From NCBI GenBank assembly GCA_030390025.1, contig CM059431.1, positions 111,850,001-111,914,000 of the forward strand: DNA of 64,000 nucleotides, read 5' to 3'. Numbering within the stretch: position 1 is the stretch's first letter; each line of letters begins with the position of its first letter. The notes under the pieces were generated by a model that saw only the letters and a program-made list of their open reading frames with translations, was not told where the DNA came from and did no database searches. A program made the position numbers and the translations under genes. Source of the DNA: Squalus acanthias. Taxonomy: Eukaryota. Positions 4,483 through 61,437 of the stretch are shown piece after piece.

Positions 4483-4651
4483 CTGTCCTACTGTTAGCAT
4501 GTGCTTGGCGTCTTCTGGTGACACAATTAGCTTGCCCTGTTCATTCCACACATGACGAACAACTTGGAGCGCTTGCTTGGACCACTTACTGCTGCTATCG
4601 GTCAGCTTCCCAATGAGTTCTTCAGCTGACATATTACTCTGTGCAGCTGAC
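4483..4651 (-). CDS. COMMD6: COMMD6 coding exon 5 (SAAQSNMSAEELIGKLTDSSSKWSKQALQVVRHVWNEQGKLIVSPEDAKHMLTVGQ)
   Basis: Within ORF 4198..4719; acceptor ttctcttggcAG and donor GTGAG; 169 nt; contains the Trp typical of the end of the COMMD helical domain. Confidence 0.9.
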
Positions 4652-10229: not shown

Positions 10230-10271
10230 ATGGACTGCCAGCGCTGGTTACCACTGGAAGCCAATCCCGAT
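10230..10271 (+). CDS. UCHL3: Ubiquitin C-terminal hydrolase L3, coding exon 1 (MDCQRWLPLEANPD)
   Basis: Matches recalled human MEGQRWLPLEANPE; 42 nt; donor GTATGC. Confidence 0.96.
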
Positions 10272-10386: not shown

Positions 10387-10398
10387 GTCATGAACCAG
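10387..10398 (+). CDS. UCHL3: UCHL3 exon 2, 12-nt microexon (VMNQ)
   Basis: Strong acceptor ttttattttttctAG and donor GTGAGT; corresponds to human VTNQ. Confidence 0.93.
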
Positions 10399-11017
10399 GT
10401 GAGTTACTGGGGCTGCAGAGGCTGCAAAGTGAGACCGTGGTGCTGCTCGACTCCTGGCAATCAGTTCTGGAGGACTTGCACTGCAGGCTTTTGTGTATTT
10501 GGTTTATTTCCCCTTCAATGCGTGATGGTGGGATTGTTGTTGTTGAATTCAATATCTAGCAAAATGGGCGTCATTTATTTAAAAAAAAGAACAGATTTTT
10601 GGTGTCTGGTTTACATTGCAGAAATTTCCACAAGCCCAGGTTTTGAGTGGGACTTTCTAGTCGATAAGTGGCATTTCTATTACAGGAAAACATTACCATT
10701 GTGGAAAATGCTGATACGTTCATTTCCCTTTTGCTCTGCTGTAGTAACAATGTTGCTTAGAAAGGGAGAATGTTGGTGTTTTCCACTTAGCAAATCTGTA
10801 CCGTAATTCAATGGAATGTTTACTGTTCAGTTAAGCCACTTATGATATTTGGTCAGATGTCAGATTATAGGGAACTGTCCTTCAGGAAAAAGTAACAAAC
10901 ATTAGCAGAGAGAGAAGCGCTGTATGTCATTTTTGTCACATGTAATATATTCTAATGTGACATTGTGCCTGGTAATGCAATTGAGAAAAGATTTGCCAAG
11001 TCTTTCATAAAGATGGT

Positions 11018-11720
11018 GGCCCAAAATTTGCAATCGGAGGCTTCTGACCTGTAAAAAAAAAAATGTATGTATTTACCTGGTGGCCCGGGAGGTATGGAGG
11101 CTTGCGATCCTGGGCCTCTCCGGGTCCGCGCGGGCAGAGGCCCACAGGCGGTTCGCAAGCGCCCCTGGGATCACGTGGGCCGGCCCAACCAATAAAAGAA
11201 GAGAATCCCCATTCATACTTATGGGGTTTCTGTACATAAGGAACTTCCATAAGTATGAATGGGGATCACTTAAAAAATACACCAACACATGAAATCATTT
11301 TTTTTAAATTGCATGTTTAAAATGAATTAAAATGCCATTTAATTAAATATTTTAAATGAAAACTTAATATTTTGAAAAAAAAGTATATGTTTTAACGGGG
11401 CTAAAAATAAACTTACCTTATTGGACAGGGTTTTTAATGTATAAACGTGATAACATTTTATTTTTCTATTTTTTAAAAACTCTTATGTTGGTAAAAGAAT
11501 TTCACTGGCATTCAGCGGGCGGAAGTTGGGTAAATAGCGCAACTCTCCACCCGCAGAGGCCCATCTCCCGGGGATGAGGAAGATCTGTCAAGAAGATTCT
11601 TGACATCGCAACTTCCGGGTTTCAGCGTATGCACTTCGCATGCCTAAACCCAGAACCTGCGCGGCCCCTACGGGCACATACACACCTTGTACGCACCCGT
11701 TGGGGTCGGCAAATACAGCC
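11018..11720. mobile_element. Putative non-autonomous TIR DNA element
   Basis: Imperfect termini ggcccaaaatttgc / gcaaatacagcc; GC-rich ends and AT-rich core. Confidence 0.55.
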
Positions 11721-13854
11721 TGGTGTGTTTTAACATTTCTGCGCGCACATTTTAGGTTGCGTAATGATTTCCCTGCATTGACCTCACCCATTACCTTGGG
11801 AGATAGGTAACATTGACCAATGGTGACTCCTAGTGTTGCTCTTAAACTGCAAGTATAATGTACCAGGATTGTACTTGGTGGACATTCAAACTAGAAGGGT
11901 GACTGTCTTCCTGAATCAGGGGTTTGTGAAACAATAATGATGTATTACTGATTTGACCCAAAGGACGGTTTTGTATCCTTGTCATTAAGAAAGTGAAAAA
12001 TTGATGATTCATCCTCTCCATTCATAGGAGGGTATGGGTGAACCTGCTGATTTTTTTTTTTAAGCCTCACCAGTATCTACTTGCCTTCTCTAAGACCACA
12101 TAGGGATGTGAACAAGTGTTCTATTGCTCGTCTCTCACTTTAGAATGTTCCTTCTTCTCCTCCACATCACACTATTATAGTGCTGTGTTGTAGGTATATT
12201 TGAGAATTGGAATGCCATGTTAATAAGGAGCAAGTTTTAATTTTGGCTAATGGGTTGCAGGACAAATATAATTTAAGAAAGTAGATTAAAAATCGCTTAC
12301 AGTTTTTGACTTCACATGGGACATCATGGATTAAACTCTTTTTCTTGCATTCTCCCTCTAAAGTGAACAATCCTGGAGGGGGATCAGTAAGAATGTCTGC
12401 AGTTTGCCTATTGTGCGTATTGCACTAAGCGCTTTGCTTACGAGTTAATTTAAGGAGATTCAATCTGGAACACAACTTGAAATGATTGGCAGTTTTTTGT
12501 AGACATCATTTTGAAATGTATTTTCTTCTTTTGCCAATTTTCTCCTCTCCTGACGGCATTGACTTCTTCCTGAGTTGTGGTACCTCGGGTACTTCATTCA
12601 AATGGTCATTAGTCGCATGTGAGCCTTGACGGTGATTGTTGGCAGACTGTTTGCCACAGGAGGAGTAATTACAACTTGTCCTCTGATCTCAGACGCACTT
12701 CTAGCAGGCGTTCCTGGATAGTGATCAGGAGTGGGAATTTTTAGGTCCCTCACCCAGGAAGCCAATTGTAGTAATCCTATTGCCTCCACTTGGCGAGATC
12801 AGCTAACCCAGTGCAGGCCATCGTTCAAACCTGGGACTGTGTGGCTCAACTACTGGCTGGATGAACTTACTGAGACATTGGGGGAAGCCATAGACCGTTT
12901 CTGAGCAACTTTGTCTTTGGAGAAAGCCCACTTTAGTCTGCAGTCACATACTTTCTGTTTTCAATGTTTCTGTGCTTAAAAACTTTTTTTTTAAATCCCC
13001 CCCCCCCCCAAAATTTATAATTTGACTATAACGTTATGAAAGTTTTAACATTTGATAATTATTCATCCCACAATGAGAATGTCGACATGCACCAACTATA
13101 TTGAGTACCCTGGCTATCAGCACTCATTAAAACTCCTATCATCAGGTTGGAAGAGCGGAGAAGGGGAATCAAAATGGAATTAATCTGCCCCAGTATAGAA
13201 AATAATGCATAAGAGTCATTTTTAAAGTTGAATTTTCATCTTGCGGTTCAGATGACTTGAGCTTTTCTTCTGGTTTTATGATGGTGTCTAAATCCTGTTC
13301 TTAGTTAATCAATATTTTGAATGTATTTTATTTTCTACCTCCCCAGAAATCTCCTTGCGAGGAATCATAATTGCCAGTACCCTACTTTTCTTATTTTCAT
13401 GTACAAATCGCTATCTACATTCGTACCTTGTCCTGAGAGTTTCGAACACACCCTATCGTGCAAATTTGAGCCCGATTATGTCATTTTATGTTCTACCCCT
13501 GGATCAGTTGACCTTCCCTCACTGCCAAGTTATCCCAGCCCTGTCAAGTCACCCTCTTCGCCTTATTTGTTATTGGCATCTTGACCATCTGTATCCTCTA
13601 ATATTGAATTTGCTCTCGTTTTCTGCGATGAGCTATGTTTCAATGATCTCTGTCGTGACTTCCTGCCACTAAGTATGCTCCCGACTCTCAATGTCTTCTG
13701 TGAATGTTTTAGCGTTCCAGTACAGGCACCTTACTGTATTTTTTACATTTACCCTTATTGTTCAGCTTTATATTTATTTATTTATTTACTATACTAGTAA
13801 ATCTACTGTGGCAATTGCACACAGGGAGTCGAGTCCAAATGTAGTCCAAAGTCC

Positions 13855-15250
13855 ATGAATGTGGTGTTGCCTCCCAAATCCGTGCCCATCTTTCCCAGAA
13901 CTCCATGTTTGAATCCCTCCAATCATTTCTGCCCCGCCACAAGACCGAAATGGCACTTATAAAAGTCACAAGTGACATCCTATGTGACTGTGACAAAGGT
14001 AATCTATCCCTCCTCATCCTTCTCGACTTGTCTGCAGCCTTTGACATGGTTCACCACTCCATCCTTCTCCAACGCCTCTCCACCATCATCCAGCTGGGTG
14101 GGACTGCACTCGCCTGGTTCCATTCTTACCTATCCAATCGTAGCCAGAGAATCACCTGCAATGGCTTCTCTTCCCGTTCCCGCACCATTACCTCTGGTGT
14201 CCCCCAAGGATCTATCCTTGGCCCCCTCCTATTTCTCATCTGCATGTTGCCCCCCCTGCGACATCATCTGAAAACACAGCGTCAGTTTCCACATGTACAC
14301 TGAGGACACCCAGCTCTACCTCGCCACCACCTCTCTCGACCCCTCCACTATCTCTAAATTGTTAGACTGCTTGTCCGACATCCAGTACTGGATGAGCAGA
14401 AATTTCCTCCAACTAAATATTGGGAAGACCGAAGCCATTGCCTTCGGTCCCCGCCACAGACTCTGTTCCCTAGCTACCAACTCCATCCCTCTCTCTGGCA
14501 ACTGTCTGAGAATGAACCAGACTGTTTGCAACCTTGGTGTCATATTTGACCTTGAAATTAGCTTCTGACCACATATCCGCGCCATCACTAAGACCGACTA
14601 TTTCCACCTCCGTAACATCGCCCGTCTCCGCCCCTGCCTCAGCTCATCTGCAGATACCCTCGTCCATGCCTTTGTTACCTCTAGACTTGACTATTCCAAT
14701 GCACTCCTGGCTGGCCTCCCACGTTCTACCCTACGTAAACTTGAAGTCATCCAAAACTCGGCTGTCTGTGTCCTAACTCGCACCAAGTCCCATTCACCCA
14801 TCACCCCTGTGCTCGCTGACCTACATTGGCTCCCAGTTAAGCAATGCCTCGATTTTAAAATTCTCATCCTTGTTTTCAAATCCCTCCATGGCCTCGTCCC
14901 TCCCTATCTCTGTAACCTCCTCCAGCCCAAAAACCCTCCGAGATATCTACACTCCTCTAATTCTGCCCTCTTAAGCATCTCCGATTTTAATCGCTCAACC
15001 ATTGGTGGCCATGCCTTCAGCTACCAAGGCCCTAAGCTCTGGAATTCCCTCCCTAAACCTCTCCACCTCTCTACCTCTTTCCTCCTTTAAGATGCTCCTT
15101 AAAACCTACCTCTTTGACCAAGCTTTTGGTCATCTGCCCTAATTTCTCCTTATGTGGCTCGGTGTCAAATTTTGTTTTACAACGCTCCTGTGATGCGCTT
15201 GGGACGTTTTACTACGTTAAAGGCGCTATATAAATACAAGTTGTTGTTGT
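13855..15250 (+). mobile_element. L2 LINE, 5'-truncated, RT region with frameshifts
   Basis: LLILLDLSAAFDMV, GVPQGSILGPLLF, YTEDTQLY, LHWLPV, LWNSLP; tail ggcgctatataaatacaag(ttg)n. Confidence 0.96.
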
Positions 15251-15439
15251 TTTAGTCTTCATGTGAAACAGGTGGGAATAATTCGACCAGGGCATGCAGA
15301 TGTAATTAGCCCCATTTTAAAGTTTTTCTTTCGGTCCTTATTTTTATATTTCTATTCTAAATTCCTGTGTCCACATTTATAATGGGAACTGCCTATGTAA
15401 ACTTATAACAATGTAATTACAGCCTCCTGCTAGTGATGG

Positions 15440-16130
15440 CACTGCAGCCAGTATATCTTCTACCAGTCACGTTTGGCATATCCCAAAGGCCCATGCTTGG
15501 ATCCCTCCTATTCCTTTATCGACATGCTGCCCCATGCCAATCTCAGAAACGTAAGGTTCAGCTTCTACAAATATATGCTGAAGACCTCTCTCTGCTACAT
15601 AGTCTTAATTCTAATTTTCTCATCATGGTATCCAGCTGTCTATCTGACATCCAAATCCTGAAAGAGCCAGAATTTCTTGCCCTGAATATTGGCAAGACCA
15701 AAGAGGCTGCTCTCTCAGACTGAACCTGATGTTGTGCAGTGTTGGTGTCATCCTTGACCCGTGGATGTGCTTCAAGCCCCACATTCAACCCATAACCAAG
15801 ATAGCTTGCTTCCGACTGTGTAACATCATTTGCTTCCCACCACTGAAATCCTCATCCATGGTTTGCTACTTCAAGGCTTGATGTTTTCTTTGATTTTGTC
15901 TCTAGTTCTACCCAGCACAAACTCCAATTCATTTGCAACTTTGCAGTCCATATCCTACCATACACAAACTGCACGCCCATCATCCCTGGCCTTGCAGACT
16001 CCACCAACTGCCTATCCTAAAACACCTGGATATCTATAACTCACCTTCAAATCCTTCCATAGCCTTGCTTCATCTTAATTATTTAATCTCCCGTCCTAAA
16101 CCCCAGTGTCTAGCCTCTGCTCTTTTGACT
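15440..16130 (+). mobile_element. Older decayed L2 fragment
   Basis: GISQRPMLGSLLFL, QIYAED and LNIGKTKE remnants. Confidence 0.75.
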
Positions 16131-16455
16131 CTTTCGGATGAGTCATTAAACCGAGGCCCTGTCTGCTCTCTCAGGTGGACGTAAAAGATCCCATGGCACT
16201 ATTTTGAAGAAGATCAGGGGAGTTCTCCCTGGTGTCCTGACCAATATTTATCCCTCAACTAACATAATAAAAACAGATTATCTGGTCATTATCACATTGC
16301 TGTTTGTGGGACCTTGCTGTGCACAAATTGGCTGCCGTGTTGCCCACATTACAACAGTGACTCCATTTCAAAAGTACTTCATTGGCTGTAAAGTGCTTTG
16401 AGACGTCCGGTGGTCGTGAAAGGCGCTATATAAATGCAAGTCTTCCTTTCTTTCT
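16130..16455 (+). mobile_element. DeuSINE (SacSINE1-like), 5'-truncated; other copies at ~20545-20950, ~36765-37320, ~38395-38670, ~59925-60075 (-)
   Basis: Deu-domain gatgag..taaaccgaggcc..aaagatcccatggcac..ggtgtcctg plus L2-like tail. Confidence 0.85.
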
Positions 16456-17121
16456 CTGATTTGTTGCATGTTACTATGACCGCTACCCCTCACTCTCTAC
16501 CATGGGTGGCAGAGCCTTCAGTCGCCATGCCCTTGCATTCTGAGACTCTTCCTGTCTCCTGTCCTTCGAAAGGGTCCACAGGTCTCGCAGGCACTTCTCC
16601 AATCCATCTGAAGGCAGACTGAGAAACATTTGTGAGACAAGGCCAGATATGAATTGCTCCCTGCTTTATTTTACAGCCAGCAACTGAACCTGCAGAGTAA
16701 CTGTTCTAGCAAAATGGAATTATTTCACTCAATCTCCAAAAATGGGAAGATTATAAGCCATGCGTACGTAGGTTATCTTAATTGTTTTAGGCGTTGTCTT
16801 TCTGTCTAGACTTCTAACTGCAAAAATTGATGTATTGCGTCTTGGCTTCTTGCTCTGGGCCCCCTTTGTAAAAACCTGATCAAATCTTGGAACACGGACT
16901 TTTCACCTTTTTGTTGATTCTGACCCCAGGAAGCAGTGGGGTGGTGTCTCTGCCTCCTTCCCCTTATAGGGATTCGCCAGAAGGCCTTTCAACCAAACTG
17001 ACCCCCCCCACCCCCCCCCTCTTCCGTGAGAGTATTCTCAGGAGACGCTTCATGCTGTGCCTGTGTGAAGAGGATCGTCCTCGTCACAATGGGTGAAGAT
17101 TTGTTGGCTATCTGAGATCAG

Positions 17122-17865
17122 GGCCTGGAGTTTCCGCTCGCTGGCACTGCTTTTTTCGGCGCAATTCCCCCGCTATCGGTGTAACCGGCGCACAAGATTG
17201 CGAATTTTAAGAGCAAACTGCATTCGGCGCAACTCGAGTTTCCGCCATCTTTTGCGCTAGTTTTAAAGTCATCGTGCTAGAAGCAGGCCCCACCCACAAA
17301 ACCGGCCACGTCCACAGGGTGAATTAATCACCATGGCGAGTTTCCGCTAATTGCGCTCGTTTGCGGGCCTTCGAGGAGGCTCCAAAAGTTAAGCTGGAAC
17401 TTTTGGACGCAAGCACACTAATGGGTACATTTTGAAAGGATTTGAATGATTTTTTTTTTAACTTACTAAGGAACTGACTACTGCACCCCAATCTAACCAG
17501 AAAATAGTTCTGTATATTTTTTTTAAGTCATTTTCAGTCATTTAAAATGGGGTTACTCACAGGTGGTGGATTGACGCTGTGATTTAAAATGCTTATCTTT
17601 TGTGATAAACCCATTTTCAGCTGTATTAATCAAACTTTACCAATTTACCACCCTTAAATTTATCGAGGAATATTTTTTATAGCAATTTTAAAAATTACGT
17701 TTTAAAACGCTGCCCGGTTGCGCTGGATCATGACAGATTTTGTGTCGGTGATATGCAAATGAGTTTGATGGGAAACTCGTGGGTGGGGGGGGGGCGAAAC
17801 ACTTTCAAAACGGGCGCAGTTTGCTTCGGAATCGGCGATTGTGCCCAAAATGGAAACTCTACACC
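17122..17865. mobile_element. Putative non-autonomous TIR element with Harbinger-like termini
   Basis: Termini ggcctggagtttcc / ggaaactctacacc, flanked by CAG on both sides. Confidence 0.6.
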
Positions 17866-18677
17866 CAGATTATTAACGTCCGGGTAGAGACCACTCCAGC
17901 TACTGGCTCGCTACCATCTGACGCTCCCTTCTGTCGCCGTGCTGCAGCCTGCTGCTTTTTAAACCGGTGTTCTTTTTAAAAACACAATTCCTAAGCCGTA
18001 ACTCAATCCTAAATACATTAAAAAAAAAAGCCCTGAAACGTGAAAATCATACTAAGAGCACAATGATTTCCCGGCTGATAGCGGTAAGGAATGGGAATCG
18101 TAACTTGTGATGAATTCTCCTGAGTCCCAGGCCTTCTGCATGGACTGTTATATCAGCACATTCCTGTGGAAGTAGCACATTGGGTCAAGAGATGAAAATG
18201 CCCTGTATATGGAGAAGCGTCGCCTCAGATGTGTTCTGCTCAGCAAATTCCTCACTCATGATGTGGTCTAGAAAAACAAATACAGGAGATGATTTATTAA
18301 TCGTTACGCACGCAATGAATCCCACTGTATGTAAAATACTGTTGAGTTCCAGTTTGATTTTTGGCTGTGGTTCTTGGTTAAAGTGAGCTGATGATGAGAA
18401 TCCCATTTAACCTGTTGGAGCCCATTGATTTACTTAAAACATCTTCTAGATTTCTTCCGATTTTTACATTTTTCTTTTATTCATTGAAAGAGATTTTTTT
18501 TAATTTAAATACTCTGAACCTCACTGGGGACAGAGGAAACTGTTCCGGACTGACTCTGCGTGAACATCTGCCGACTTCGACTTGGAGTTTCCCCCTGATT
18601 GTTTCACTAAACCTCCGCGTTAAACTCTTATTCAGGAGAAATCATTTGAAAAAGACATGTACCTAGATAAGTCTTGA

Positions 18678-18954
18678 TGCGGAGATGCCGGTGTCGGACT
18701 GGGGTGGACAAAAGTGAGAAGTCGCACAACACCAGGTTATAGTCCAACAGTTTTATTTGAAATCACAAGCTTTCGGAGCTGCTGCCCCTTCGTCAGGTGA
18801 AGTGAAGGAATACAAATCGGCAAAGCATATATAGACAGAGAACAATGCCTGTGCAGCGTACAATGTCAGACGACTACAGTTAATCTTTCTGACTGTTTCT
18901 CTGCCGAGGTGTGATAAAAGGCAATCAGGTCAGGAAGGCATTATATCAAAGACA
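18678..18954 (-). mobile_element. Short Penelope-type insertion carrying a hammerhead motif (family A)
   Basis: 14-bp TSD tagataagtcttga at 18664-18677 and 18955-18968; homologous to 51153-51472. Confidence 0.8.
18763..18800 (-). ncRNA. Minimal type I hammerhead ribozyme motif
   Basis: Minus strand: ucac CUGACGA a ggggc-agca-gcucc GAAA gcuu guga, giving stem I, core boxes, 5-bp stem II and palindromic AAGCUU. Confidence 0.75.
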
Positions 18955-21116
18955 TAGATAAGTCTTGACAGTTTTGACAGTGCATTGGGATTGGTGATAC
19001 GGTTGTACACATGATGGGGAACTCTACACTTTGGTGGGGGAGCATGGGGGAAGGTAGCTTTGTGATAAGTCGGGTCAGTGGGACACCGTAGTTCCTTCCT
19101 AAGTAAGTCGTGATCTTGTAGAGTTAGTTCATTGGCTTTTGAAAATTGTTGCTCCTTTCTACATTGAACTCTTGCCTTTTTGGAAAGAAGGAAAGACTTG
19201 CATTTATATAGCGTCTTTCACGACCTCCGGACGTCCCAGGGAGAAGGACAAGGGCAGCAGGCGCATGGGAACACCACCACCTCCAGGTTCCCCTCCAAGT
19301 CACACACCATCCTGACTTGGAAATATATTGTCGCTCCTTCATTGTCGCTGGGTCAAAATCTTGGAGCTCTCTACCTAACAGTACCGTGGAAGCACTTTCA
19401 CCAGACGGACTGCAGCGGATCAAGAAGGCGGCTGGTGCTTCCACAGTACTATTAGGTAGACAGTTCCAAGACTTTCTCGAGGGCAATTAGGGATGGGCGA
19501 TAAATGCTGGCCTTACCAGCAATGGCCACATCCCATGAATGAATTAAAAATAAAGTACCTTTTTGTGGTGGTCTGAGTTTAGAGAGGGGGGAGCAGTGAA
19601 GACAGTTGACTAGTTTTTTGACTGACCTGGGTTTATTTATTATCTATTAAGAATTGTGTTTTTGAGCTACATATCCTGTATTGAATAAGATTATATTTGG
19701 AGAGCTTAGAATGAGTTCTGAGATTTAAAAATAATTGCAGTCCTATGAAAACTTCATCAAATTGGTTGCAAATTGATTGAGACTGTAGACCCAAAACGGT
19801 TATGCATTCTTTTTAAAGTACTGGCTTCCAGTTCTGGATGTTCTTACTAATTGGCCATTCCATGCATTGGCGGGCTTGAGGATTTCCTGACTCTCCTTTA
19901 TCCATTGTCCACCAGTGATTGTGATCTAAACAATTTTGAAAAACCAACAGGGGAGAAAAAATAGTGTGTACATCACTTTTAAAGGGATACTAATGACATT
20001 TTTTTGCAAATTAAAAAAATTTGCGAAATGGAAGTCTTGACAGTAATGCCGTCACCAGCACAATGTTTTATCGTTCCAGAGGGAATCAAACCGCTCTCCT
20101 TTCACACTAGGTGGCGATGTTAATCTGTGATAACGAGATGGCTTCACAAGCTGGCTGGGTGGAGTACAGTCCCATCCTCTTGGAATAACAGTGCAAAAGG
20201 GGTCTTTGCCATAAGGCACTGAAACAGATGAGAACATTTTGCTAAGAACAAGGCAGAGTTGCTTAAAGAAATACTCCTTATCCTCGAACATTAATCTCAA
20301 AAGATAGTGCCGGGGTAATTTCTTTAAACAATTTTGTTTAAAGCTTAAAAGAAAATGAAGGGATGCTGGAAGCCAAAGATAGATTGGGAGCCAATGATTT
20401 GCATTATTTGTTAACTTAGTCTCAGAAACTAGGCTGAAAATGGCCGCTTAGGTAGGAGACTGATGGTGACTTTTTAGAAAGGAAACATCATTACTTACTT
20501 GTATGGCTGCATTTTCAGGTCAGTGACCCAAGAATAAAAAGCTCTCTCGCCTCTGAGTCAGCAGGTTGTGAGTTCAAGCCCCACTCCAGGGACTTGAGCA
20601 CAAAAGCTAGGCTGACACTCCAGTGTAGTACTGAGGGAGTGCTGCACTGTCGGAGGTGCTGTCCTTCCGATGAGACGTTAAACCGAGGCCCCTGTCTGCC
20701 CCCTCGGGTGGATGTAAAAGATCTCATGTCTCTATTTGCAGAAAAGCAGGGGAGTTTTCCCCAGTGTCCTGGCCAACATTTATCCCTCGTCCAACGTCAC
20801 TAAGTCAGATTGTCTGGTCATTATCACGTTGCGGTGTGTGGGAGCTTGCTGTGCGAAAATTGGCTGCCGCGTTTCCTACATTACAACAGTGACTCCACTT
20901 TAAAACACCCGAGGTCGTGAAAGACTCTATATAAATGCAAGTCTTTGTTTTCTAAAGCAATTATGAGGTGTTTTGACATCTTCTAATCCATGTGGGTTTC
21001 ATTCCATTCAGTGAATTTAATTGTATGCATGATGAATATGTAATTTAATTGTATACATGATGAATATGTAAAGATGAGTTTACCTGTTGAATTGACTTGA
21101 GGCATTTTCCCACCAG

Positions 21117-21245
21117 TTCATGCAGCAACTGGGATTGCTGCCCAGCTGGCAATTTGGCGATGTCTTTGGAATGGATCCTGAACTCCTCAATTTGGTGCCA
21201 AGACCTGTCTGCTCAATTCTTCTACTCTTCCCAGTTACAGAAAAG
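21117..21245 (+). CDS. UCHL3: UCHL3 exon 3 ([43 protein letters not shown])
   Basis: 129 nt; AG/GT bounded; peptidase C12 motifs DVFG and VPRPV..LLLFP. Confidence 0.97.
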
Positions 21246-40878: not shown

Positions 40879-41035
40879 TATGAAGCCTTCAAGCAAGAAC
40901 AGGAAGCAAAAATAAAATCTGAGGGACAAAAAGTCAATCCGCAAGTTTATTTCATGAAACAGACCATCAGTAATGCCTGTGGGACTATTGGCCTTATACA
41001 TGCACTGGCTAACAATCGAGATAAACTAGAATTTG
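40879..41035 (+). CDS. UCHL3: UCHL3 exon 4 ([52 protein letters not shown]), contains catalytic Cys
   Basis: 157 nt; [15 protein letters not shown] active-site motif with Cys codon at 40978-40980; acceptor tccttcAG and donor GTGAGT. Confidence 0.98.
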
Positions 41036-42510
41036 GTGAGTATTTGGTTTATGTGAAATCTTCCACAATCAAAAGCTAAATTGTTTTGAAACCAGTGTAA
41101 GCCTTGCGTATTGTACGTGCCTGTCTCTGTCGCACTTTGCTCTTGCACCTTTCCACATTGTTTTCAGTGTCACAGAAAATCAGCAATAAGTAGAACTGAA
41201 CAGATTGGGAACATATCCATCAAACACAAAGAAAGCTGCTAAAAAGCTATCGGTGAGGGACTAAGAACACAAACGATCAGTCAACAGAACTATCAAGAAA
41301 GAAGAAAGTGAACCAATAAAATACATCCACATTTATAAAACAAATTCTTTTAGCTGCTGCCTTGGTATTTCTGTGAAGCTGAGGATTTACAACGGAAATA
41401 GGTTCATAACATAATCAAATTACAAAATTTACAAGAAAATGATTCGACTTGAATATTCAATGGCATTTAGTGTAACCACATACATGCTAAACTAGAAAAA
41501 GCTGATCATCAGCTTCAAAATAGCTGACCACTTAGAATATACAGCAATGACCTGCGAAGACAAAGACTTACACTGAGTGTGCAGCGGGACATGGTGTTGT
41601 CATAAACTAAGCTGCAGGTATATGCAACGTTCCATTACTTTTGTTGTATTACAGAGAAGCACCGTTAACAGCGGTCGGTGGTGATTTAGAAAGGGATTGT
41701 GAACAACGTTCCCGCTAAGCTGCGCGGCCGTGCAGCGGTCTGGAGGTCCCGCGCAGGCCGCTCGCCGTCTTTTACATTGAAGAAGCCGCGCATGCGCGAA
41801 AATGTGAATGGGTCACGCAGCCAGTTAAAGGGACCGCGCACGAAAACACATTGGTTGTAAATGCTGAAGACATGAGAATTATCTTCTGTGTTTTTTCCAC
41901 ACCTGATTTGGTGACATTTTCGGAGCCTGCTATAATTGAGTGAAGCTCAGGTTTTTCTTATATTAAGTAAAATGGGTCATCCACTTCAACCCCACTTATT
42001 TACAAACCTTGACTATTCCACAAGTGAGATGATGGGGGTTGGCTGTTAAAGCCAGTCCAGTTAATGCATTCATACCAGGGAATATCCAGCTCATCTCAAA
42101 AGAGCAGCTGCAACGGTATTGCAGAAAATAAACCTTCACATTGAACAATAGCAGGACATGCACCAGAAAGTTCCTTGGAGGAAACGTTTCTAGAAGCTGC
42201 TTATTTTTTTTGAGGATAAACCCTAAATAAACACTCCTAGTTTGTTTCTGAGAATCCCAGTTACAGGTTATTCTTAAATTCTTCACCCTCAAGTTTGTGG
42301 GCAGCGAACAACAGGAAAAGGTAACATCTGATTGGTTGCAGTCCTGCCCTCCAACTTATCTGGTTCTGACCGCCTTCAGTCCCACTTTCCAAATGATCTG
42401 ATAGGTTGATACTGACATACTGATTTTTATCCTTGTGTTTAAATCTCTTCATGGCTTCGCCCCCCCTCTCTATCTCTGGAACCACCGCCCCCCAACACTC
42501 CGTTTCTCTT

Positions 42511-44731
42511 ATAATGAAAACAGAAAATGCTGGAGATACTCAGCAGGTCAGGCAGCATCTGTAGAGAGAGAAACAAAGTTAACGTTTCAAGTTGATGGCC
42601 CTTCGTCAGAACTGGAAAAAGCTGGCGATGGAACCGGTTTTGAAGCAAGTGTAGGGGCACGGAAAGGGGTGAGGGGAGGAAAGAATAAAAGGGAAGGACA
42701 TTGGTAGGATAGAAGGCAGGAGAGATTAAGAGACAAAAGGGATGATGGTGCAAGGCAAAAGGAGATGGTAATGGGACAAGTGAAGAAACAAAAGATGACT
42801 CTAGATGAAGTGTAAATGGCACTGGCAGAATGATCAGCAGCTGCCATGTGAGAGAGAGAAAAAGAATGATAGGGGCAGAGGTTATGGTGTGAAATTGTTG
42901 AACTCGATGTTGAGTCCAGAAGGCTGTAAAGTGCCTAATCGAAAGATGAGGTGCTGTTCCTCGAGCTTACGTTGAGCTTCATTGGAACAGTTTAAGAGGC
43001 CGAGGACTGAGAAGTCAGAGTAGGAGTGGAGCGGAGAATTAAAGTGACAAGCGACCGGAAGCTCGGGGTCACCCTTACGGACTGAATGGAGGTGTTCCGC
43101 AAAGCGGTCAGCCAATCTGCGTTTGGTTTCCTCAATGTAGAGGAGACCGCATCGTGAGCAGCGAATACAGTATACTAAATTGCAAGAAGTACAGGTAAAT
43201 CGCTGTTTCACCTGGAAGGGGTGTTTGGGGCCCTGGACAGTGGGAAGGGAGGAGGTAAAAGGGCATGTGTTGCATCTCCTGCGCTTGCACGGGAAGGTGC
43301 CGTAGGAAGGGTGTTGGGGGTGATAGAGGAGTGGACCAGGGTGTCGCGGAGGGAGCGGTCCCTTCGGAATGTTGAAAGGGGAGGTGAGGGGAAGATGTGT
43401 TTGGTGGTGGGATCACGCTGGAAGTGGCAGAGGATGATCCGTTGAATGTGGAGGCTGGTGGGGTGAAAGGTGAGGACAAGGGGAACCCTATCATGGTTCC
43501 GGGAGGGAGGAGATGGGGTGAGAGCAGAAGTGTGGGAAATAGAACGGACACGGTCAAGGGCCGTGTCAACCACGGTAGAGGGGAATCCTCGGTTGAGGAA
43601 AAAGGAAGACATGTCGGAAGCACTAGTATGGAAGGTGGCATCGTCAGAGCAGATGCGGTGGAGACAGAGAAACTGGGAGAATGGAATAGAGTCCTTTACA
43701 GGAAGCTGGGTGGGAGGAAGTGTAGTCCAGGTAGCTGTGGGAGTCAGTGGGCTTATTGTGAATGTTTGTTAAAAGCCTATCCCCAGAGATGGAGACAGAG
43801 AAGTAGAGGAATGGAGGGGAAGAGTCGGAGATGGACCATGTGAAGGTGAGGGAAGGGTGGAAATTGGAAGCAAAGTGAATGAAATTTTCTAGTTCAGGGC
43901 AAGATCAGGAAACGGCACCAATACAGTCATCAGTGTACCGGAAAAAGAGCTGAGGGAGGGAACCCGAGTAGGACTGGAACAAAGAATGTTCCACATATCC
44001 CACGAAAAGGCAGGCATAGCTAGGACCCATGTGGGTTCCCATAGCAACACCTTTAATTTGAAGGAAGTGAGTGGAGTCAAAGGAGAAGTTGTTCAATGTG
44101 AGAACAAGTTCAGCCAGGCGGAGGAGGGTGGTGGTGGATGGGGACTGGTTGGGCCTCTGTTCAAGGAAGAAGCGGAGCGCCCTCAGGCCATCCTGGTGGG
44201 GGGTGGAGGTGTAGAGGGATTGTACGTCCATAGTGAAAAGGAGACGGTTGGGGTCAGGAAACTGTTAAAGTGGCGGAAGGCATCGAAAGAGTCGCGGATG
44301 TAGGTGGGAAGAGACTGGACAAGGGGAGAAAAATGAGTCAAGATAGGAAGAAATCAGTTCCGTGAGGCAAGAACAGGCTGAAAGGATGGGTCTACCAGGG
44401 CAGTCCTGTTTGTGGGGTTGGGGAACTATGAGGTTGGTGGCCGTGGAGGGAAGATCTCCAGAGGAAATGAGGTCCGTGACAGTCTTGGAAACGATGGCTT
44501 GATGTTCAGTAGTGGGGTCATGGTCCAGGGGGAGGTAGGAGGAGGTGTCAGAGAGTTGCCGTTCAGCCTTCGCTAGGTAGAGGTCGGTTCGCCAAACAAC
44601 AACAGCGCCACCCTTGTCAGCAGGTTTAATGACAATATTGGGGTTGGATCTGAGAGAATGGAGTGCTGCAAGTTCAGAGGGAGGTAGGTTGGAGTGGGTA
44701 AGGGGAACAGAGAAATTGAGATGGCCAAAGT
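42511..44731 (-). mobile_element. Penelope-like element, 5'-truncated: RT plus GIY-YIG endonuclease plus terminal repeat, inserted into an L2 fragment
   Basis: KPADKGGAVVVW, MDVQSLYTS, GVAMGTHMGPSYA, FFRYTDD; GIY-YIG-type NLVYCIRCSRCGLLYIEET..RFAEH..GLN; 15-bp TSD cactccgtttctctt at 42496-42510 and 44732-44746. Confidence 0.95.
42577..42613 (-). ncRNA. Hammerhead motif in the Penelope terminal repeat, stem II partly decayed
   Basis: aguu CUGACGA agggccaucaacuu GAAA cguu aacu. Confidence 0.6.
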
Positions 44732-47700
44732 CACTCCGTTTCTCTTCCTCTGGCCTTTTTTGCTTTCCTCCCTTTGCCCCACTATTGGCAGCTGTGCCTT
44801 TAGCCATCTAGGCCCCACACTCTAGAATTCCTTACCTAAAATCCCTTCGCCTCTCCTCCTCCCTCTGCTCCCTTAATATCCTCCTTAAAAGTCACCTCTT
44901 CGACCAAGCTTTTGGTCACCTCCTCCTAATATCTCCTCCTTTGGCTCAGTGTCTATCTATTTTTCTGATTACACCTGTGTGAGGTGCTTTGGGACAGTTC
45001 TTTCTGTTAAAAGTGCTATATAAATAGGAGTTGTTACCGTTTTGAAGGGAACACTTTATTTATTTATCAACCTGTAGTTGGCAAGGAAAACTTTAAGTAG
45101 TCAAAAAATGCCTCACTGTCTCTGAACGCCTGAACCTCTTTCCAAGTTCTTTTAATGGATTTGTGCATCCCTTTCCCACCCCCTTGCAACAGTATAACCT
45201 TTGACCCACTGTGAACAACACAGAAGAGATCTGCTCCTGTAATATAATCTCCTCCAGCCCCATAACCCTCAGATATCTGAACTCCTCCAATTCTGGCCTC
45301 TTGAGCATCCCTGATTTATATTCGCTCCACTATTGGTGGCCGTGCCTTCAGCTGCCAAGGCCCTAAGCTCTGGAATTCCCTCCCTAAACCCCTCCATCTC
45401 TCTACCTCTCTCCTAATACGCTCCTTAAAACCTACCTCTTTGACCAAGCCCTAATATCTCCTTATGTGACTCGGTGTCAAATTTTGCTTTATAACGCTCC
45501 GGTGAAGCGCCTTAGGGTGTTTTACTATGTTAAGGCCCTATATAAATACAGTTGTTGTTATAAAGCAGCTGCGAATAAGTAATTTTGTTAATGATGGGAC
45601 CGAAATCCTCTGGACAGTTTAAATGTTCTGAGATTTAATCCCAGATCGGTGATAATTTAGCCGATTTCAGTTGTGGCTGCATTAAGAGCAAAACAATTAG
45701 TCCCGATGCTCCCTGGACGAGGTAGAGGAAAACTGGTCGGGGGTCCTGTTCACCATCCAGTGACTGTGCTGGATAAGGACCAAATCCAGCTCCACTGTAG
45801 TGCCTGCCAGCCATTCCTGTCGAGGCTCACGTGTATGTAATGGCTGCTTCCAAAAGGTACTGGAGGACAATTGGTGTCCTGGGACACTCGACCCCAGCAA
45901 GGAGTCAATACCGTCTGCAGTGCGAGAGGGAAAAAAGGCATTTCTGAAGTTTATATTGGAACTCTTTGTTCCCATGAGAGACATACCCACATATAAGCTT
46001 GGTGTACATAGGACAGTTTGGATCATGGGCAACTTGTAAATCATTCCATGTAATAAAGCTGATAACATTGTGGGAATTGTTGGGCGGAATCAACTGTGAC
46101 AGTCCAATAGAACTGAATCATCCAAGGTGGAGTAGGTCTTAACTGCATCTTAAAGAAATCCTGTATAAGACTGAATGAATAATGACAAAATTCTGAGAAC
46201 ATCCTAGCAGACCCTATTTCATGTTCAGTTGCTCGAATGTGGGGTGGGGGCGGAGAACTTAAAAAAAATAAAATAACCACAGAAGCTTACAGCATGACAG
46301 GAGTCCGTTCAGTTCATCATGGCTGTGCCAGCTCTTGCCTAGAGCAGCCCAAAACAATCCTGCTGCCCTGCTCTCACCTCAGCCCTGTATCATCATTTGC
46401 TTAAAATGCTTATCCACTTATCCTTTTAAAAGGTACAGCGGTCTCTGCCTCAGTCACTCCCTTTAACAACTGTCGCCTCACTCTCTCTTAGTAAAGATTT
46501 TAAATTGATAACCTCTTGTCACTGACTCCCAACTAGAAGAATTGGTCTTTCCCCATATACTTCATCAAAACCCTTCATCTTTTTAAAATCCCTTATTAAA
46601 TCCCCATATAGCCTCCTCTGCTCCAGTGGAAATAGTCCCAGTATCTCGAACCTGCCCTCCGAGCTATAGTTTCTGACCCCTCTGTTGCTTTGATGTCCAA
46701 AACTCTACACAGTACTCCAACTGTGGCCAGGCCATTGCCTTGTACAAATTTATCATTACCTTTTTACTCTATGCCCCTATTTATCAAACTGAAAATGCTA
46801 TTGGCCTTTATATGTACCTGCACTCGCACTTTCAAGCAATAATTTATTTGAACCTCAAGATCGTTATGTTCATCCACACCCTTCAGCATCTTTCCATTGG
46901 AGTGTTTACTCCCAATCCTTGTTTCCTCACAAAGTTGTGAGCAGCTGAGAAGTACTGCACTGGAAGCATTGGACCAGGCCCTCAACAACCACCATCAGTC
47001 TTCAGTCATCAATGGTAGGGTGGGCCAGCTGTGAGCAAGTGCACCTACCTATTTTCTATTTTTCTGGGAAAAGTGATTTGTTCTTACGAAGAGCACTCTG
47101 GGATAAGGCCACATTAATGAATGCGGCTTTCTGTTTATATAGCCAGTAACAAAAGCTTGCTAGATTTATAAAAATCACAAATGAAATACAGTTCCTCTCG
47201 CAGCAACACAAGCAATCCATGCTGACTGATGACTAAAGCATCTTAAGTCTGAGGATATTTGAGGGGTCAGATTAGGACCTTTGGCAATGTTCCGATTGCT
47301 GATGAAACAAATCTAGCATTTGGTCCCAACTCTGAATTTGTGACCCAGTTTCTAAGTATGGTCAATAATTCTTCACTCAATAGTGTTGTATCTCTCTTTC
47401 CCACACTAATTGTATGACCCATCATTTGTACCATTGGCACTAAGATCGGAAACTCCTGTCAGAGTTAACATTTTTTTGTACCTAAAATAGGCCATATGCA
47501 GAGAACCAAATGTTAAAGATTAAGTATTTTAATTCACCTTTAACTCTTCAATGTCAAAGTAATTGGCACTCGTCATCTCCATTTTGCTGTTTTGTTTAAA
47601 ATGTGTGACTGATCAAAACTGCCAGTAGCTCTTTTGGTTTCTTACCATGATCTGTTCCATTAATTTATTTTTACTCCTGTGATATTTATTTTTTTCTTCT

Positions 47701-49935: not shown

Positions 49936-51152
49936 GACTCCACGTTCAGGTAACTTACTTGCCTTCTTTGTTGCAGGTGTAGGGCTGGTTTCCCCCGAGT
50001 GCTGCCCACGCTGGCCCTGGCTGCCTCAGGACAAACCAATGTTGGAGTGGGGACCTCAAGCAGGTGTTGGGTCCTTTGCATATGCAACTAAGGGGCCTAA
50101 CGCTTGCATCAGGCATGGGTAAAGGACGCCTCTTGTTTGTCCTTACCCAGTATGGCGGCTGGCTCACTTCCTGCCTGCCATTTTGGGGCCTTAGTAAGCC
50201 ACTATGCTGCCTGTTTTCTCGGCCAGCGACTTTGAATTTGCCTGAGATTGAGAGCTGCCCAATCCAGTGAACCATGCTATCACCTAAGCTTGCTCCATCC
50301 CCAGCTGAGAGTATGAATTACTATGGATAGGTGTCTAAGGATTTGCTCCCAAACAAGGATTTGTGGCCTCCAGTGCCGCTGCTGTGTACCTCTGCTCATT
50401 GGTGACACCACAAAAAAGTGGAGCTGAGAGAGGGAGACAACCTGAAGGGTTTCCATGCAGGTCAGAAAATTGGCATTTATATAGAATAAAGTCTAAGAAT
50501 TTTTTTAATTATATATATTTTCATTAATATGGGGGGAGTGCTTTGAACTATAAGTTCTTGCCCTTTAATTTAGCAGTAACTGGAAAATTACAAACTCTGA
50601 TCTTAATAACCCTTTTTTCATGTTCACTTGTATAAATATAAAATTACACGAGTGATGTGCAAAACAGAAGTACATACAGATGTGCACTTTCTTTGTTGAG
50701 CATTGTTACCGTTTGTTTTTTATTGTAAGTAAAACATATGTTAAAAAATTTGTTCAGCTTTTATTAGATGTTTTTGATTTACAACAATTCATTCCTTTCT
50801 TTTTGCACCTGCGACCTGTTTAAGGAAACCATATCATTGAAGTCCTGTTCTGTGCTTTGGGCTCCACCAGTTCAGTTTTATATGTAGGAATGAATCCATT
50901 ATTGTGCCCTACCTTCTTGTACTCAACACAAAAAGGCAGTTCAGCCCATCCAGATCTTGTTTCAGAATCCATTTGTCTTTTCCAATACCGAACCCATAGC
51001 ATTCCCCCCCCACCCCCCCCCCCACCACACCGCTGCCTCTTGAACTGGGATTCATTCCATTCCCTTTTGAATGCTTTACCTGAATCAGTTTCCGCTGTAC
51101 TCTTGATATAGGATAGAGCACCCTGACCAGGTGCTATGACGTTCATTATGTT

Positions 51153-51472
51153 CATGATGCGGAGATGCCGGTGTTGGACTGGGGTGGACAAAAATGAGAA
51201 GTCGCACAACACCAGGTTATAGTCCAACAGTTTTATTTAAAATTACGGGCTTTCGGAGCTGCTGCCCCTTCGTCAGGTAAAGGTACAGTGAGGGAATCTA
51301 TTACACAGTATATATACACAGAGAGCAATTTGTCTGCAGAGATACAATCTTTTAGGGAGGCATTACATCAAAGACACATCAGAGTACAGCTAAGACAATG
51401 AGGTGGGTCACAGGGTCCAACGTGTCAAATGCTGCCGTCTGCAGTTGAGCTTTTAACTTTTTTTTTGTTTAT
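51153..51472 (-). mobile_element. Short Penelope-type insertion with hammerhead motif (family A, second copy)
   Basis: 12-bp TSD gttcattatgtt at 51141-51152 and 51473-51484; first ~125 bp nearly identical to 18678-18800. Confidence 0.8.
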
Positions 51473-57000: not shown

Positions 57001-57610
57001 GACATATCAAGAAAGATTGGGTCAACTGAACTTGTATCCTCTGGAGTTCAGAAGAATGAGGGGGGATCTTATAGAGACATTTAAAATCCTGACTGGTTTA
57101 GACAAATTAGATGCGGGCAGAATGTTCCCAATGTTAGGGAAAACTAGAACCAGGGGTCACAGTCTAAGGATTAAGGAGAAGCCATTTAAGACTGAGCTGA
57201 GGAGGAACTTCTTCACCCAGAGAGTGGTGAATCTATGGAATTCTCTTCCACAGAAGGTTGTTGAGGCCAGTTCGCTAAATATATTCAAAAGGGAGTTAGA
57301 TATAACACTCACAACTAGGGGGATCAAGGGGTATGGCGAGAAAGCAGGAATGGGGTACTGAGGTAGCATGTTCAGCCATGAACGCATTGAATGGCGGTGC
57401 AGGCTCGAAGGACCGAATGGTCTACTCCTGTACCTATTTTCTATGTTTCTATTCAAGAAGCATTTAGATGAGCACTTGAAACGCCATAGCATACAAGGCT
57501 ATGGACCAAGTGCTGGAAAATGGGATTAGAATAGATAGGGCCTGATGGCTGGCGCGGACACGATGGGCCGAAGGGCCTCTTTCTGTGCTGTATAACTCTG
57601 TGACTCTATG
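54030..57610 (+). mobile_element. Host CR1 3' fragment split by the nested CR1 (parts 54030-54692 and 57451-57610)
   Basis: FNPEKCEVMHFG..LVRPQLEYCV..IWNSLPERVVEAGTL continues after the insert as ttcaagaagcatttagatgagcacttgaa. Confidence 0.93.
54693..57450 (+). mobile_element. Young CR1 LINE, ~2.76 kb, truncated in the endonuclease; ORF2 open except one frameshift near 56020
   Basis: EN motifs VYRPP, GDFN, SDH; RT motifs PGPDG, NYRPVSLTS, YLDFQKAFDKV, GVPQGSVLGP, FADD; (ttctatgt) tail. Confidence 0.98.
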
Positions 57611-61179: not shown

Positions 61180-61398
61180 TACATAGACTTTTACAGCACA
61201 GAAACAGGCCATTTTCCCAGCAGGTCTGTGCCGGTGTTTATGCTCCACGTGAGCCTCCTCCCACCTTGCTTCATCTCACCCTATCAACATATCCTTTTAA
61301 TCCTTAATGCGAAATACTGCGGATGTTGGCAATCTGAAATAAAAACAGAAAATGCTGGAAATACTCAGCAGGTCAGGCAGCATCTGTGGGGAGAGAAA

Positions 61399-61437
61399 CA
61401 GTTAACGTTTCAGGTCGATGACCCTTCATCAGAACTG
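61399..61437 (-). ncRNA. Minimal type I hammerhead ribozyme motif (family B) inside a Penelope terminal-repeat fragment (~61306-61450)
   Basis: caguu CUGAUGA a ggguc-auc-gaccu GAAA cguu aacug; 5-bp stem I, 5-bp stem II, palindromic AACGUU. Confidence 0.78.

What the first reader, a model, noticed from the sequence alone, without database searches (positions are those of the whole stretch)
18664..18968. 277-bp non-coding insertion with a 14-bp TSD and an intact minimal hammerhead motif
Seen: exact TSD tagataagtcttga, no ORF, and minus-strand ucac-CUGACGA-a-ggggc/agca/gcucc-GAAA-gcuu-guga. Known: Penelope-like elements carry minimal type I hammerheads whose helix III is a short palindrome, proposed to cleave as dimers. 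Inference: either a non-autonomous retrozyme-like family or a heavily 5'-truncated terminal repeat. It is a second family, since no coding partner for it lies in this window.
Basis: partly seen in the sequence, partly recalled or inferred. Interest (0 to 1): 0.7.

Follow-up and report, generated by a model that had tools for sequence, protein, structure and literature searches.

The report
Truncated Penelope retroelement end with hammerhead
This is a real, fairly recent insertion of the short end piece of a very common jumping gene (a Penelope-like retroelement) that carries the small hammerhead ribozyme motif typical of such elements, so it is a clean example of a known kind and not a new system.

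Summary
An exact 14-bp duplication (18664-18677, 18955-18968) flanks 277 non-coding bases carrying a complete minimal type I hammerhead motif on the minus strand (18763-18800). All three runs from other organisms show the empty site, a contig skipping exactly 291 bases. Family copies end at two places about 35-42 bases apart beside AT-rich flanks, and coverage fades toward the 5' end. That is the described Penelope-like element (PLE) pseudo-LTR with optional 'tail' and 5' truncation. The hammerhead cut site is internal and no head-to-tail unit joint was listed, which argues against a retrozyme. Best reading: a 5'-truncated PLE 3' end in UCHL3 intron 2, antisense, probably inert as a lone copy. 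Not shown: linkage to an RT/GIY-YIG ORF (no genome held), self-cleavage, or whether the family is a dedicated non-autonomous element. Earlier scan notes report PLE hammerhead ends elsewhere in this and two other genomes (unchecked; none matched by sequence). New member of a known kind.

The parts
18664..18677 (+). Left copy of the 14-bp target-site duplication; its last 3 bases (18675-18677) are also the element family's 3' end (microhomology)
   Evidence: one copy only at the empty site in runs X7, X8, X11; family sequence reaches 18675 in copy B and in loose-end tables
18678..18954 (-). 277-bp insertion: 3' end (pseudo-LTR part) of a high-copy Penelope-like family, 3' end on the left, truncated 5' end on the right; non-coding
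   Evidence: skip of 291 bases in 3 of 3 other-organism runs; longest stop-free frame 58 codons
18675..18717 (-). Optional 3' extension ('tail'): present in this copy; many family copies stop at 18708-18717 instead
   Evidence: loose ends with unique AT-rich flanks before 18675/18681 and before 18708-18717 in all 4 runs; tail as described in PMC11167929, PMC8557442, PMC3846280
18718..18762 (-). Conserved spacer between hammerhead and first 3' end; the most deeply covered part of the family in all runs
   Evidence: depth peak in bin 18731-18760 in 4 of 4 runs; 1 difference from copy B in this stretch, at 18759
18763..18800 (-). Minimal type I hammerhead motif: 4-bp helix I, CUGACGA, extra A, 5-bp helix II, GAAA, palindromic helix III half-site, U17
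   Evidence: matches the min-HHR features listed in PMC4209133 (extra nucleotide between 9 and 10.1, G10.1-C11.1, palindromic 15.2/16.2)
18775..18788 (-). Helix II; family variation seen is a G.U to A-U change at 18786 and a 1-nt loop deletion at 18780
   Evidence: tables 3, 4, 7
18766..18767 (-). Predicted scissile bond (after U17); not tested
   Evidence: standard hammerhead numbering applied to the sequence
18801..18954 (-). Variable 5' part, well covered only in the same-species run; subfamily-specific
   Evidence: summed depth at 18851-18880: 709,627 in X1 against 195, 124 and 0 in X7, X8, X11; gapped and diverged against copy B
18955..18968 (+). Right copy of the 14-bp target-site duplication
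51153..51472 (-). Second family copy (copy B), 320 bp, same 3' end with tail, about 100 bases longer at the 5' end, candidate 12-bp duplication at 51141-51152 and 51473-51484; hammerhead damaged at U16.1 and U17, compensatory pair in helix I
   Evidence: its empty site was not tested
10399..21116 (+). Host context: intron 2 of a UCHL3 gene; the insertion is antisense to it
   Evidence: exons at 10230-10271, 10387-10398, 21117-21245, 40879-41035 read from the sequence; fourth exon matches UCH-L3 at E 7e-21 and Peptidase_C12

Best explanation
A 5'-truncated insertion of the 3' end (pseudo-LTR plus 'tail') of an endonuclease-bearing Penelope-like retroelement. Steps: (1) shown: DNA was inserted here after the split from three related organisms, duplicating 14 target bases; (2) shown: the insert is one of many thousands of family pieces sharing a conserved 3' module of about 125 bases with a hammerhead motif and two alternative 3' ends; (3) inferred from PLE biochemistry (PMC11167929): the PLE RT/GIY-YIG protein nicked AT-rich DNA, began reverse transcription at the distal of two internal start sites of its RNA (giving the tail), and stopped after about 280 bases; staggered second-strand cleavage gave the duplication; (4) inferred: the hammerhead is inherited cargo of the terminal repeat. 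It was not cut in the template used, since sequence on both sides of the cut site was copied in one piece. A lone copy antisense to its host gene has no partner for dimer cleavage and is most likely inert.
For: Empty site, skip of exactly 291 bases, in 3 of 3 other-organism runs. 15,851, 2,516, 2,240 and 19,533 contig records laid in the four runs, depth concentrated on the insert against single-copy flanks. Two 3' end positions: loose ends before 18675 (138 records in X1, 250 in X11) or 18681 (21 in X7, 31 in X8) and before 18708-18717 (65 in X1 at 18710, 336 in X11 at 18717, smaller counts in X7, X8), with low-agreement AT-rich consensus; a 30-40-bp optional tail and frequent 5' truncation are described PLE hallmarks (PMC8557442 passages; PMC11167929). 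Summed depth in X1 falls from 6.4 million (18731-18760) to 1.9 million, 0.7 million and 0.28 million toward the 5' end. Copy B shares the 3' end (119 of 126 bases identical) and runs about 100 bases further 5' to a 12-bp direct repeat. In-window control: the other PLE family, whose 42.5-44.7-kb copy has RT (Pfam RVT_1 E 2e-4, below cut-off) and a weak GIY-YIG hit (E 0.1), shows the same anatomy: hammerhead near the 3' end, copies with and without a roughly 30-base extension, 14-15-bp duplications. Hammerhead-consistent variation: G.U to A-U at 18786 in 54% of depth in X1 and 99% in X7 and X8 (11% in X11), loop-only indel, N7 C to U in the X11 loose-end consensus, one compensatory pair in helix I between copies A and B.
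Against: No sequence link to an RT/GIY-YIG ORF was obtained (no genome held; 0 hits in three microbial or viral collections). No loose-end row at 18954 was among the 24 shown of 536, so a fixed 5' end there is neither shown nor excluded. Copy B's longer 5' end rests on a 12-bp repeat without an empty-site test. Only 40 of 75 variant rows were displayed, and the spacer 18725-18762 is as invariant as the hammerhead core in those rows, so conservation specific to the ribozyme is not shown; the two-copy covariation count has no power (244 of 500 shuffles reach it). Rfam has no match.
Confidence: 0.7

Rival explanations
1. A dedicated non-autonomous mini-element: a short pseudo-LTR-derived RNA with its own start, copied in trans by a PLE protein (a SINE-like partner of PLEs). 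Same enzymes and same 3' end, but the template never held an ORF.
For: Very high abundance of the short module; a 5' part that is well covered only in this species; copies A and B share a 23-base block at A's 5' end; pLTR sequence alone can mobilise unrelated DNA in trans, and solo pLTR units with TSDs are described (PMC3846280 passages); non-autonomous PLE partners are described in Chlamydomonas (PMC8557442 passages).
Against: Depth declines steadily without a plateau up to 18954; copy B continues about 100 bases beyond A's 5' end; most insertions of autonomous PLEs are reported to be 5'-truncated single terminal repeats (bioRxiv 10.64898/2026.07.22.740005).
Confidence: 0.18
2. A solo pseudo-LTR left by recombination between the two direct terminal repeats of a longer PLE insertion, which keeps the original duplication.
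For: A TSD-bounded single terminal repeat is the expected product; recombination is suggested for some solo pLTRs in PMC3846280.
Against: Needs two events; short truncated insertions are the common direct product; nothing here points to a lost ORF.
Confidence: 0.07
3. A monomer of a non-LTR retrozyme: tandem 150-450-base units, transcribed as multimers, self-cleaved and circularised, then reinserted.
For: Length (277) and G+C below 50% are in the described range; TSDs longer than 4 bp are described (PMC7229834 passages); retrozymes derive from pLTRs and were found in the one cartilaginous fish sampled (bioRxiv 10.64898/2026.07.22.740005).
Against: Single copy, nearest relative 32 kb away with a damaged core; the motif is minimal, without the canonical helix sizes of retrozyme hammerheads; ends are fixed at the tail positions, not at the cut site or permuted; no joint from the unit's 5' end back to its 3' end listed in 4 of 4 runs, though short-read contigs can hide arrays and a few low-depth local duplications of 30-110 bases were listed.
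Confidence: 0.05

Closest known systems
Minimal hammerheads (min-HHR) in pLTRs of metazoan Penelope-like elements (Cervera and De la Pena 2014, PMC4209133; results and discussion read)
   Same: [quoted passage not shown]
   Different: Helix II is 5 bp (7-8 bp in the Schistosoma families). No cartilaginous fish is named in the parts read or in the 2 supplementary files searched (a third file could not be searched). ORF linkage of this family not shown here.
PAc, Poseidon-type PLE of Anolis carolinensis (Frangieh et al. 2024, PMC11167929; main text read)
   Same: Two 3' ends defining a tail; AT-rich targets; distal end about 113 bases from the start of helix II here against RT starts 111-118 bases from it in PAc; template not cut by its hammerhead.
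   Different: In PAc the ORF starts at helix II; here no frame is open through the 3' module, and an acceptor-like signal and a possible start codon lie at the very end of the tail. A 3-nt primer-template microhomology is present at this one junction, whereas PAc primes without homology in vitro.
Animal non-LTR retrozymes (Cervera and De la Pena 2020, PMC7229834, passages; Li et al. 2026, bioRxiv 10.64898/2026.07.22.740005, parts 1-3 of 5)
   Same: Size, low G+C, type I hammerhead, descent from PLE terminal repeats.
   Different: Not tandem; ends unrelated to the cut site; minimal rather than canonical motif; no evidence of circular RNA.
The other PLE family in this window (42511-44731, minus; Neptune-like by its CxxC linker, per the clade description in PMC8557442)
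   Same: Hammerhead near the 3' end with a 6-base palindrome and U17, optional tail, 14-15-bp duplication, 5' truncation, antisense to UCHL3.
   Different: No significant sequence similarity outside the core boxes (996 and 898 of 1000 shuffles score as well); it retains decayed RT and endonuclease sequence.

Membership tests
Minimal type I hammerhead (min-HHR) | Core boxes C3-U4-G5-A6-N7-G8-A9 and G12-A13-A14-A15.1, U16.1-H17 | tested here: met
   18796-18790, 18774-18771, 18768-18767
Minimal type I hammerhead (min-HHR) | Helix I and helix II can form; extra nucleotide before G10.1-C11.1 | tested here: met
   Both helices in the minimum-energy fold of the 38-base motif and of the 129-base 3' module; but pair probabilities only about 0.04-0.05 in the whole insert
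Minimal type I hammerhead (min-HHR) | Palindromic helix III half-site allowing a dimer | tested here: met
   18772-18767 is a 6-base palindrome; double-hammerhead fold -19.9 kcal/mol against -22.4 for two monomers and -28.1 for the best co-fold, so possible but not favoured
Minimal type I hammerhead (min-HHR) | Structure-preserving variation across copies | tested here: inconclusive
   Wobble-to-Watson-Crick change, loop indel, N7 change, one compensatory pair; no core position among 40 of 75 rows shown, but the neighbouring spacer is equally invariant; copy B has lost U16.1 and U17
Minimal type I hammerhead (min-HHR) | Self-cleavage (as dimer or protein-assisted) | not testable with these tools
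   needs an in vitro assay
Penelope-like element pseudo-LTR (EN+) | Hammerhead near the 3' end of the terminal repeat | tested here: met
   C3 lies 79-86 and 121 bases from the two 3' ends
Penelope-like element pseudo-LTR (EN+) | Optional 30-40-bp tail | tested here: met
   Two loose-end clusters, 18675/18681 and 18708-18717, in 4 of 4 runs
Penelope-like element pseudo-LTR (EN+) | Frequent 5' truncation with fixed 3' ends | tested here: inconclusive
   Depth gradient and unequal 5' ends of copies A and B fit, but divergence could contribute and 5' ends were not enumerated
Penelope-like element pseudo-LTR (EN+) | Target-site duplication of variable length at AT-rich sites | tested here: met
   14 bp with empty sites; candidate 12 bp at copy B; AT-rich loose-end consensus; 8-10 bp reported in a rotifer (PMC3846280)
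Penelope-like element pseudo-LTR (EN+) | Linkage to an RT plus GIY-YIG ORF | not testable with these tools
   No genome held; none beside either copy in the window; collections searched hold no copy
Non-LTR retrozyme | Head-to-tail tandem units, each with a hammerhead | tested here: not met
   Single unit at this site and at copy B; no whole-unit head-to-tail joint listed in 4 of 4 runs (short-read contigs, so arrays elsewhere are not excluded)
Non-LTR retrozyme | Canonical type I hammerhead with helix III and loop 1-loop 2 contacts | tested here: not met
   Helix I 4 bp, no helix III loop; no Rfam hammerhead match
Non-LTR retrozyme | Abundant linear and circular monomer RNA | not testable with these tools
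   No RNA run on record among holders; no evidence either way

The most novel reading that the evidence does not exclude
The family is a dedicated non-autonomous, SINE-like partner of Penelope elements: a roughly 300-base pseudo-LTR RNA with a swappable 5' part and a 125-base hammerhead-plus-tail module kept across at least four related organisms, amplified to perhaps 10^4-10^5 copies in trans, and primed on targets through a few bases of pairing at the tail. It would give thousands of dated insertions to test whether the hammerhead is under selection when no ORF is present and whether PLE priming in vivo uses microhomology.
Probability: 0.18. Interest if true: 0.45.

Novelty: new member of a known kind. 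Interest (0 to 1): 0.2.

Why it matters
By itself this is one of many thousands of similar retroelement stubs. Its value is as a clean specimen: a proven empty site, an exact duplication, an intact motif and the long 3' end. The role of PLE hammerheads is still open (dimer cleavage, protein-assisted cleavage, or passenger), and a family this large with a conserved 3' module and two 3' ends is good material for testing in genomes what was shown in vitro for one lizard element. It is also a usable presence/absence marker between this species and its relatives.

Tried and rejected
Whole-genome search: no genome is held, so copy number, 5'-end distribution and ORF linkage could not be counted. A 20-base window pattern found 0 matches in viral, metagenome and prokaryote genome collections: these hold no such DNA, which says nothing about the family. 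Rfam: 5 weak matches in the window, none in the insert, no hammerhead. No RNA holder listed among 24 runs: no evidence on expression. Whole-insert folding is unremarkable (z -0.96, 33 of 200 shuffles as good), and the 66-base motif region z 0.00: no support for a stable retrozyme-like fold. An extended helix I (a 5-bp outer stem can be drawn by eye) was rejected because its 5' strand is variable among copies and weak in copy B. A longer, 27-bp duplication suggested by the 8-mer at 18651 and 18948 was rejected because the 8-mer's right copy is family sequence, shared with copy B. Membership in the RT-bearing family at 42.5-44.7 kb was rejected. A suspected exon at 18100-18270 has stops in all six frames of the stretch examined and was dropped. 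Summed depth was not used as a copy number, as the tool warns against it. Look-ups of earlier scan findings by sequence, near place and relatives returned nothing. Paper searches (listings only) showed no title or abstract describing this family; Repbase and Dfam could not be searched, so it may already be catalogued there.
Full report
Observation. The 14-mer TAGATAAGTCTTGA occurs exactly twice in the window, at 18664 and 18955, enclosing 277 bases. The longest stop-free frame in the insert is 58 codons. On the minus strand the hammerhead motif is as described, from 18800 to 18763, with the predicted cut after U17 (18767). A random 14-mer of the window recurs 100-500 bases downstream in 0.4% of 20,000 trials. 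A strict minimal-hammerhead descriptor, written after seeing the motif, hits twice in the window (18796, 61432) and never in 60 Mb of dinucleotide-matched random sequence. Rfam has no hammerhead match at E up to 5; the motif lacks helix III, which may be why (inference).

It is a true insertion. No assembly is held, so I laid public contigs on 18281-19180: one run of the same organism (X1) and three runs of three other organisms (X7, X8, X11), 4 of the 24 runs listed. In 3 of 3 other organisms one contig covers both flanks and skips exactly 291 bases, the insert plus one copy of the duplication. Flank contigs differ from the window by a few per cent (X7: 17 other letters in 388 bases on the left, 5 in about 195 on the right), so the insertion is younger than that split. 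In X7 and X8 the joint is placed one base to the right, so the boundary may be off by one.

It belongs to a very large family. 15,851, 2,516, 2,240 and 19,533 contig records were laid in X1, X7, X8 and X11, with depth piled on the insert while the flanks stay at single-copy depth. These are fragments and summed depths, not copy numbers. A second copy lies in the window at 51153-51472: 119 of 126 bases identical over the 3' module, gapped and diverged further 5', about 100 bases longer, and bounded by a 12-bp direct repeat (51141, 51473) whose chance level is about 0.3%; its empty site was not tested. Two copies in 64 kb would mean on the order of 10^5 in a multi-gigabase genome, a rough inference from n = 2.

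The family has the anatomy of a Penelope-like pseudo-LTR. Family contigs leave the stretch into unrelated, AT-rich sequence at two places: before 18675 or 18681 (138 records in X1, 250 in X11, 21 in X7, 31 in X8) and before 18708-18717 (65 at 18710 in X1, 336 at 18717 in X11, 7 plus 19 in X7, 8 plus 23 in X8); 24 of 536 loose-end rows were shown. An optional 30-40-bp tail, frequent 5' truncation and hammerheads in the pseudo-LTR are the described marks of these elements (PMC8557442, passages; PMC3846280, passages). For the anole element PAc the tail was shown to be the interval between two internal reverse-transcription starts, on AT-rich targets, with uncut RNA as the main template and a hammerhead that cleaves only with the protein (PMC11167929, main text). 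Here the distal end is 113 bases from the start of helix II, close to the 111-118 reported there. Depth in X1 falls from 6.4 million at 18731-18760 to 1.9, 1.6, 0.7, 0.5 and 0.28 million in successive 5' bins; in the other organisms the 5' part is almost uncovered. This fits truncation plus a lineage-specific 5' part, and the data cannot separate the two.

The window supplies an internal control. A different family has a decayed, 5'-truncated copy at 42511-44731 (minus) with RT (Pfam RVT_1, E 2e-4, below the cut-off; 1 of 8 frames scanned had a hit), a CxxC linker and a weak GIY-YIG hit (E 0.1). It is bounded by a 15-bp duplication, has a hammerhead near its 3' end and lacks the tail, while its relatives near 580-743 (14-bp duplication) and 61306-61452 extend about 30 bases further.

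The hammerhead. It has each feature listed for PLE minimal hammerheads in PMC4209133 (results and discussion read), which also reports thousands of single motifs per genome ascribed to truncated elements, no cleavage as a monomer and low cleavage as a dimer. Variation among family copies respects the fold: at 18786 the G.U pair becomes A-U in 54% of depth in X1, 99% in X7 and X8 and 11% in X11; a one-base deletion falls in loop 2; the X11 consensus changes only N7 in the first box; copies A and B differ by a compensatory pair in helix I. Against over-reading: only 40 of 75 variant rows were shown, the neighbouring spacer is just as invariant, two sequences give no statistical power (244 of 500 shuffles), and copy B has lost U16.1 and U17. 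Energy models fold helices I and II in the isolated motif and in the 3' module, but give them probabilities of only 0.04-0.05 in the whole insert; the double-hammerhead dimer (-19.9 kcal/mol) is less stable than two monomers (-22.4) or the best co-fold (-28.1), and pairing of A14 with U17 across the 6-base palindrome (-22.5) would tie up the scissile base. These are nearest-neighbour estimates without tertiary contacts. The copy lies in intron 2 of UCHL3, antisense, alone within 32 kb, so it is unlikely to cut the host pre-mRNA (inference).

Mechanism and rivals. Most likely a PLE protein nicked the site, primed at the distal start of its RNA, copied about 280 bases through the uncut hammerhead and stopped, leaving a 14-bp duplication (0.70). 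The insertion, duplication, family size and two 3' ends are shown; the enzyme and template are inferred. A dedicated non-autonomous mini-element using the same enzymes remains possible (0.18), as does a recombination-derived solo repeat (0.07). A retrozyme monomer is unlikely (0.05): retrozymes are defined as tandem units with a hammerhead in each (PMC7229834, passages; bioRxiv 10.64898/2026.07.22.740005, parts 1-3 of 5; its supplements not seen), whereas this is single, its cut site is internal, and no whole-unit head-to-tail joint was listed in any of the four runs, although short-read contigs can hide arrays. That preprint also states that most PLE insertions are 5'-truncated single terminal repeats, and found retrozymes in the one cartilaginous fish it sampled.

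Novelty. Minimal hammerheads in PLE terminal repeats, tails, truncated solo ends and their duplications are all described. Five paper searches (listings only) and two supplementary files of PMC4209133 showed no description of this family, but Repbase and Dfam were not available. The host is a vertebrate by its UCHL3 gene; the label 'shark' comes from my recall of such repeats and from earlier scan notes, not from a test. Earlier notes describe intact young PLEs with paired hammerheads and many hammerhead-bearing ends in this genome and fold-back ends in two others; they are unchecked, and I could not tell whether they concern this family. Verdict: real, well supported, a new member of a known kind; interest 0.2.

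Noticed in passing
window 51141-51484 (minus): Second copy of the family, 320 bp with a candidate 12-bp duplication; hammerhead damaged at U16.1 and U17 but with a compensatory pair in helix I.
   Followed up: yes
window 42496-44746 (minus): Decayed 5'-truncated Penelope-like element of another family (RT, CxxC linker, weak GIY-YIG) with a 15-bp duplication and no tail; relatives near 580-743 (fold-back, 14-bp duplication, the source of a spurious microRNA hit) and 61306-61452 carry the tail.
   Followed up: partly
window 18699-18718 and 18672-18677 (minus): A branch-point-like pentamer, pyrimidine run and AG lie at the start of the tail, and the family's long end falls on an AUG (in a strong start context in the X7, X8 and X11 loose-end consensus). 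This would fit a 5'-UTR intron ending just before the ORF start, as in Drosophila Penelope; untested.
   Followed up: no
window 18675-18677: The target's last 3 bases equal the family's 3' end (5 of 6 if the X1 consensus is used): possible primer-template microhomology, from one event only.
   Followed up: partly
window 18651-18658 and 18948-18955: An 8-base match between the left flank, 5 bases outside the duplication, and the element's 5' junction; chance or a trace of microhomology-guided 5' joining.
   Followed up: partly
window 18796, 42609, 51276, 61432: All four hammerhead motifs found lie on the minus strand, antisense to UCHL3 (the first three between or beyond its located exons); too few to call a bias.
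   Followed up: no
window 10230-41035 (plus) and 4483-4651 (minus): Four UCHL3 exons were located; an exon-like frame on the opposite strand upstream resembles COMMD6 by recall (no Pfam hit).
   Followed up: partly
   Followed up: no
table 5c, runs X1, X8, X11 (18674-18807): Low-depth joints that step back 30-110 bases within the 3' module suggest rare short tandem duplications of the tail or spacer in some family copies.
   Followed up: no
window 54663-57361 (plus): Two long overlapping frames (468 and 482 codons) of an endonuclease/RT LINE, CR1-like by recall, broken by a frameshift.
   Followed up: no
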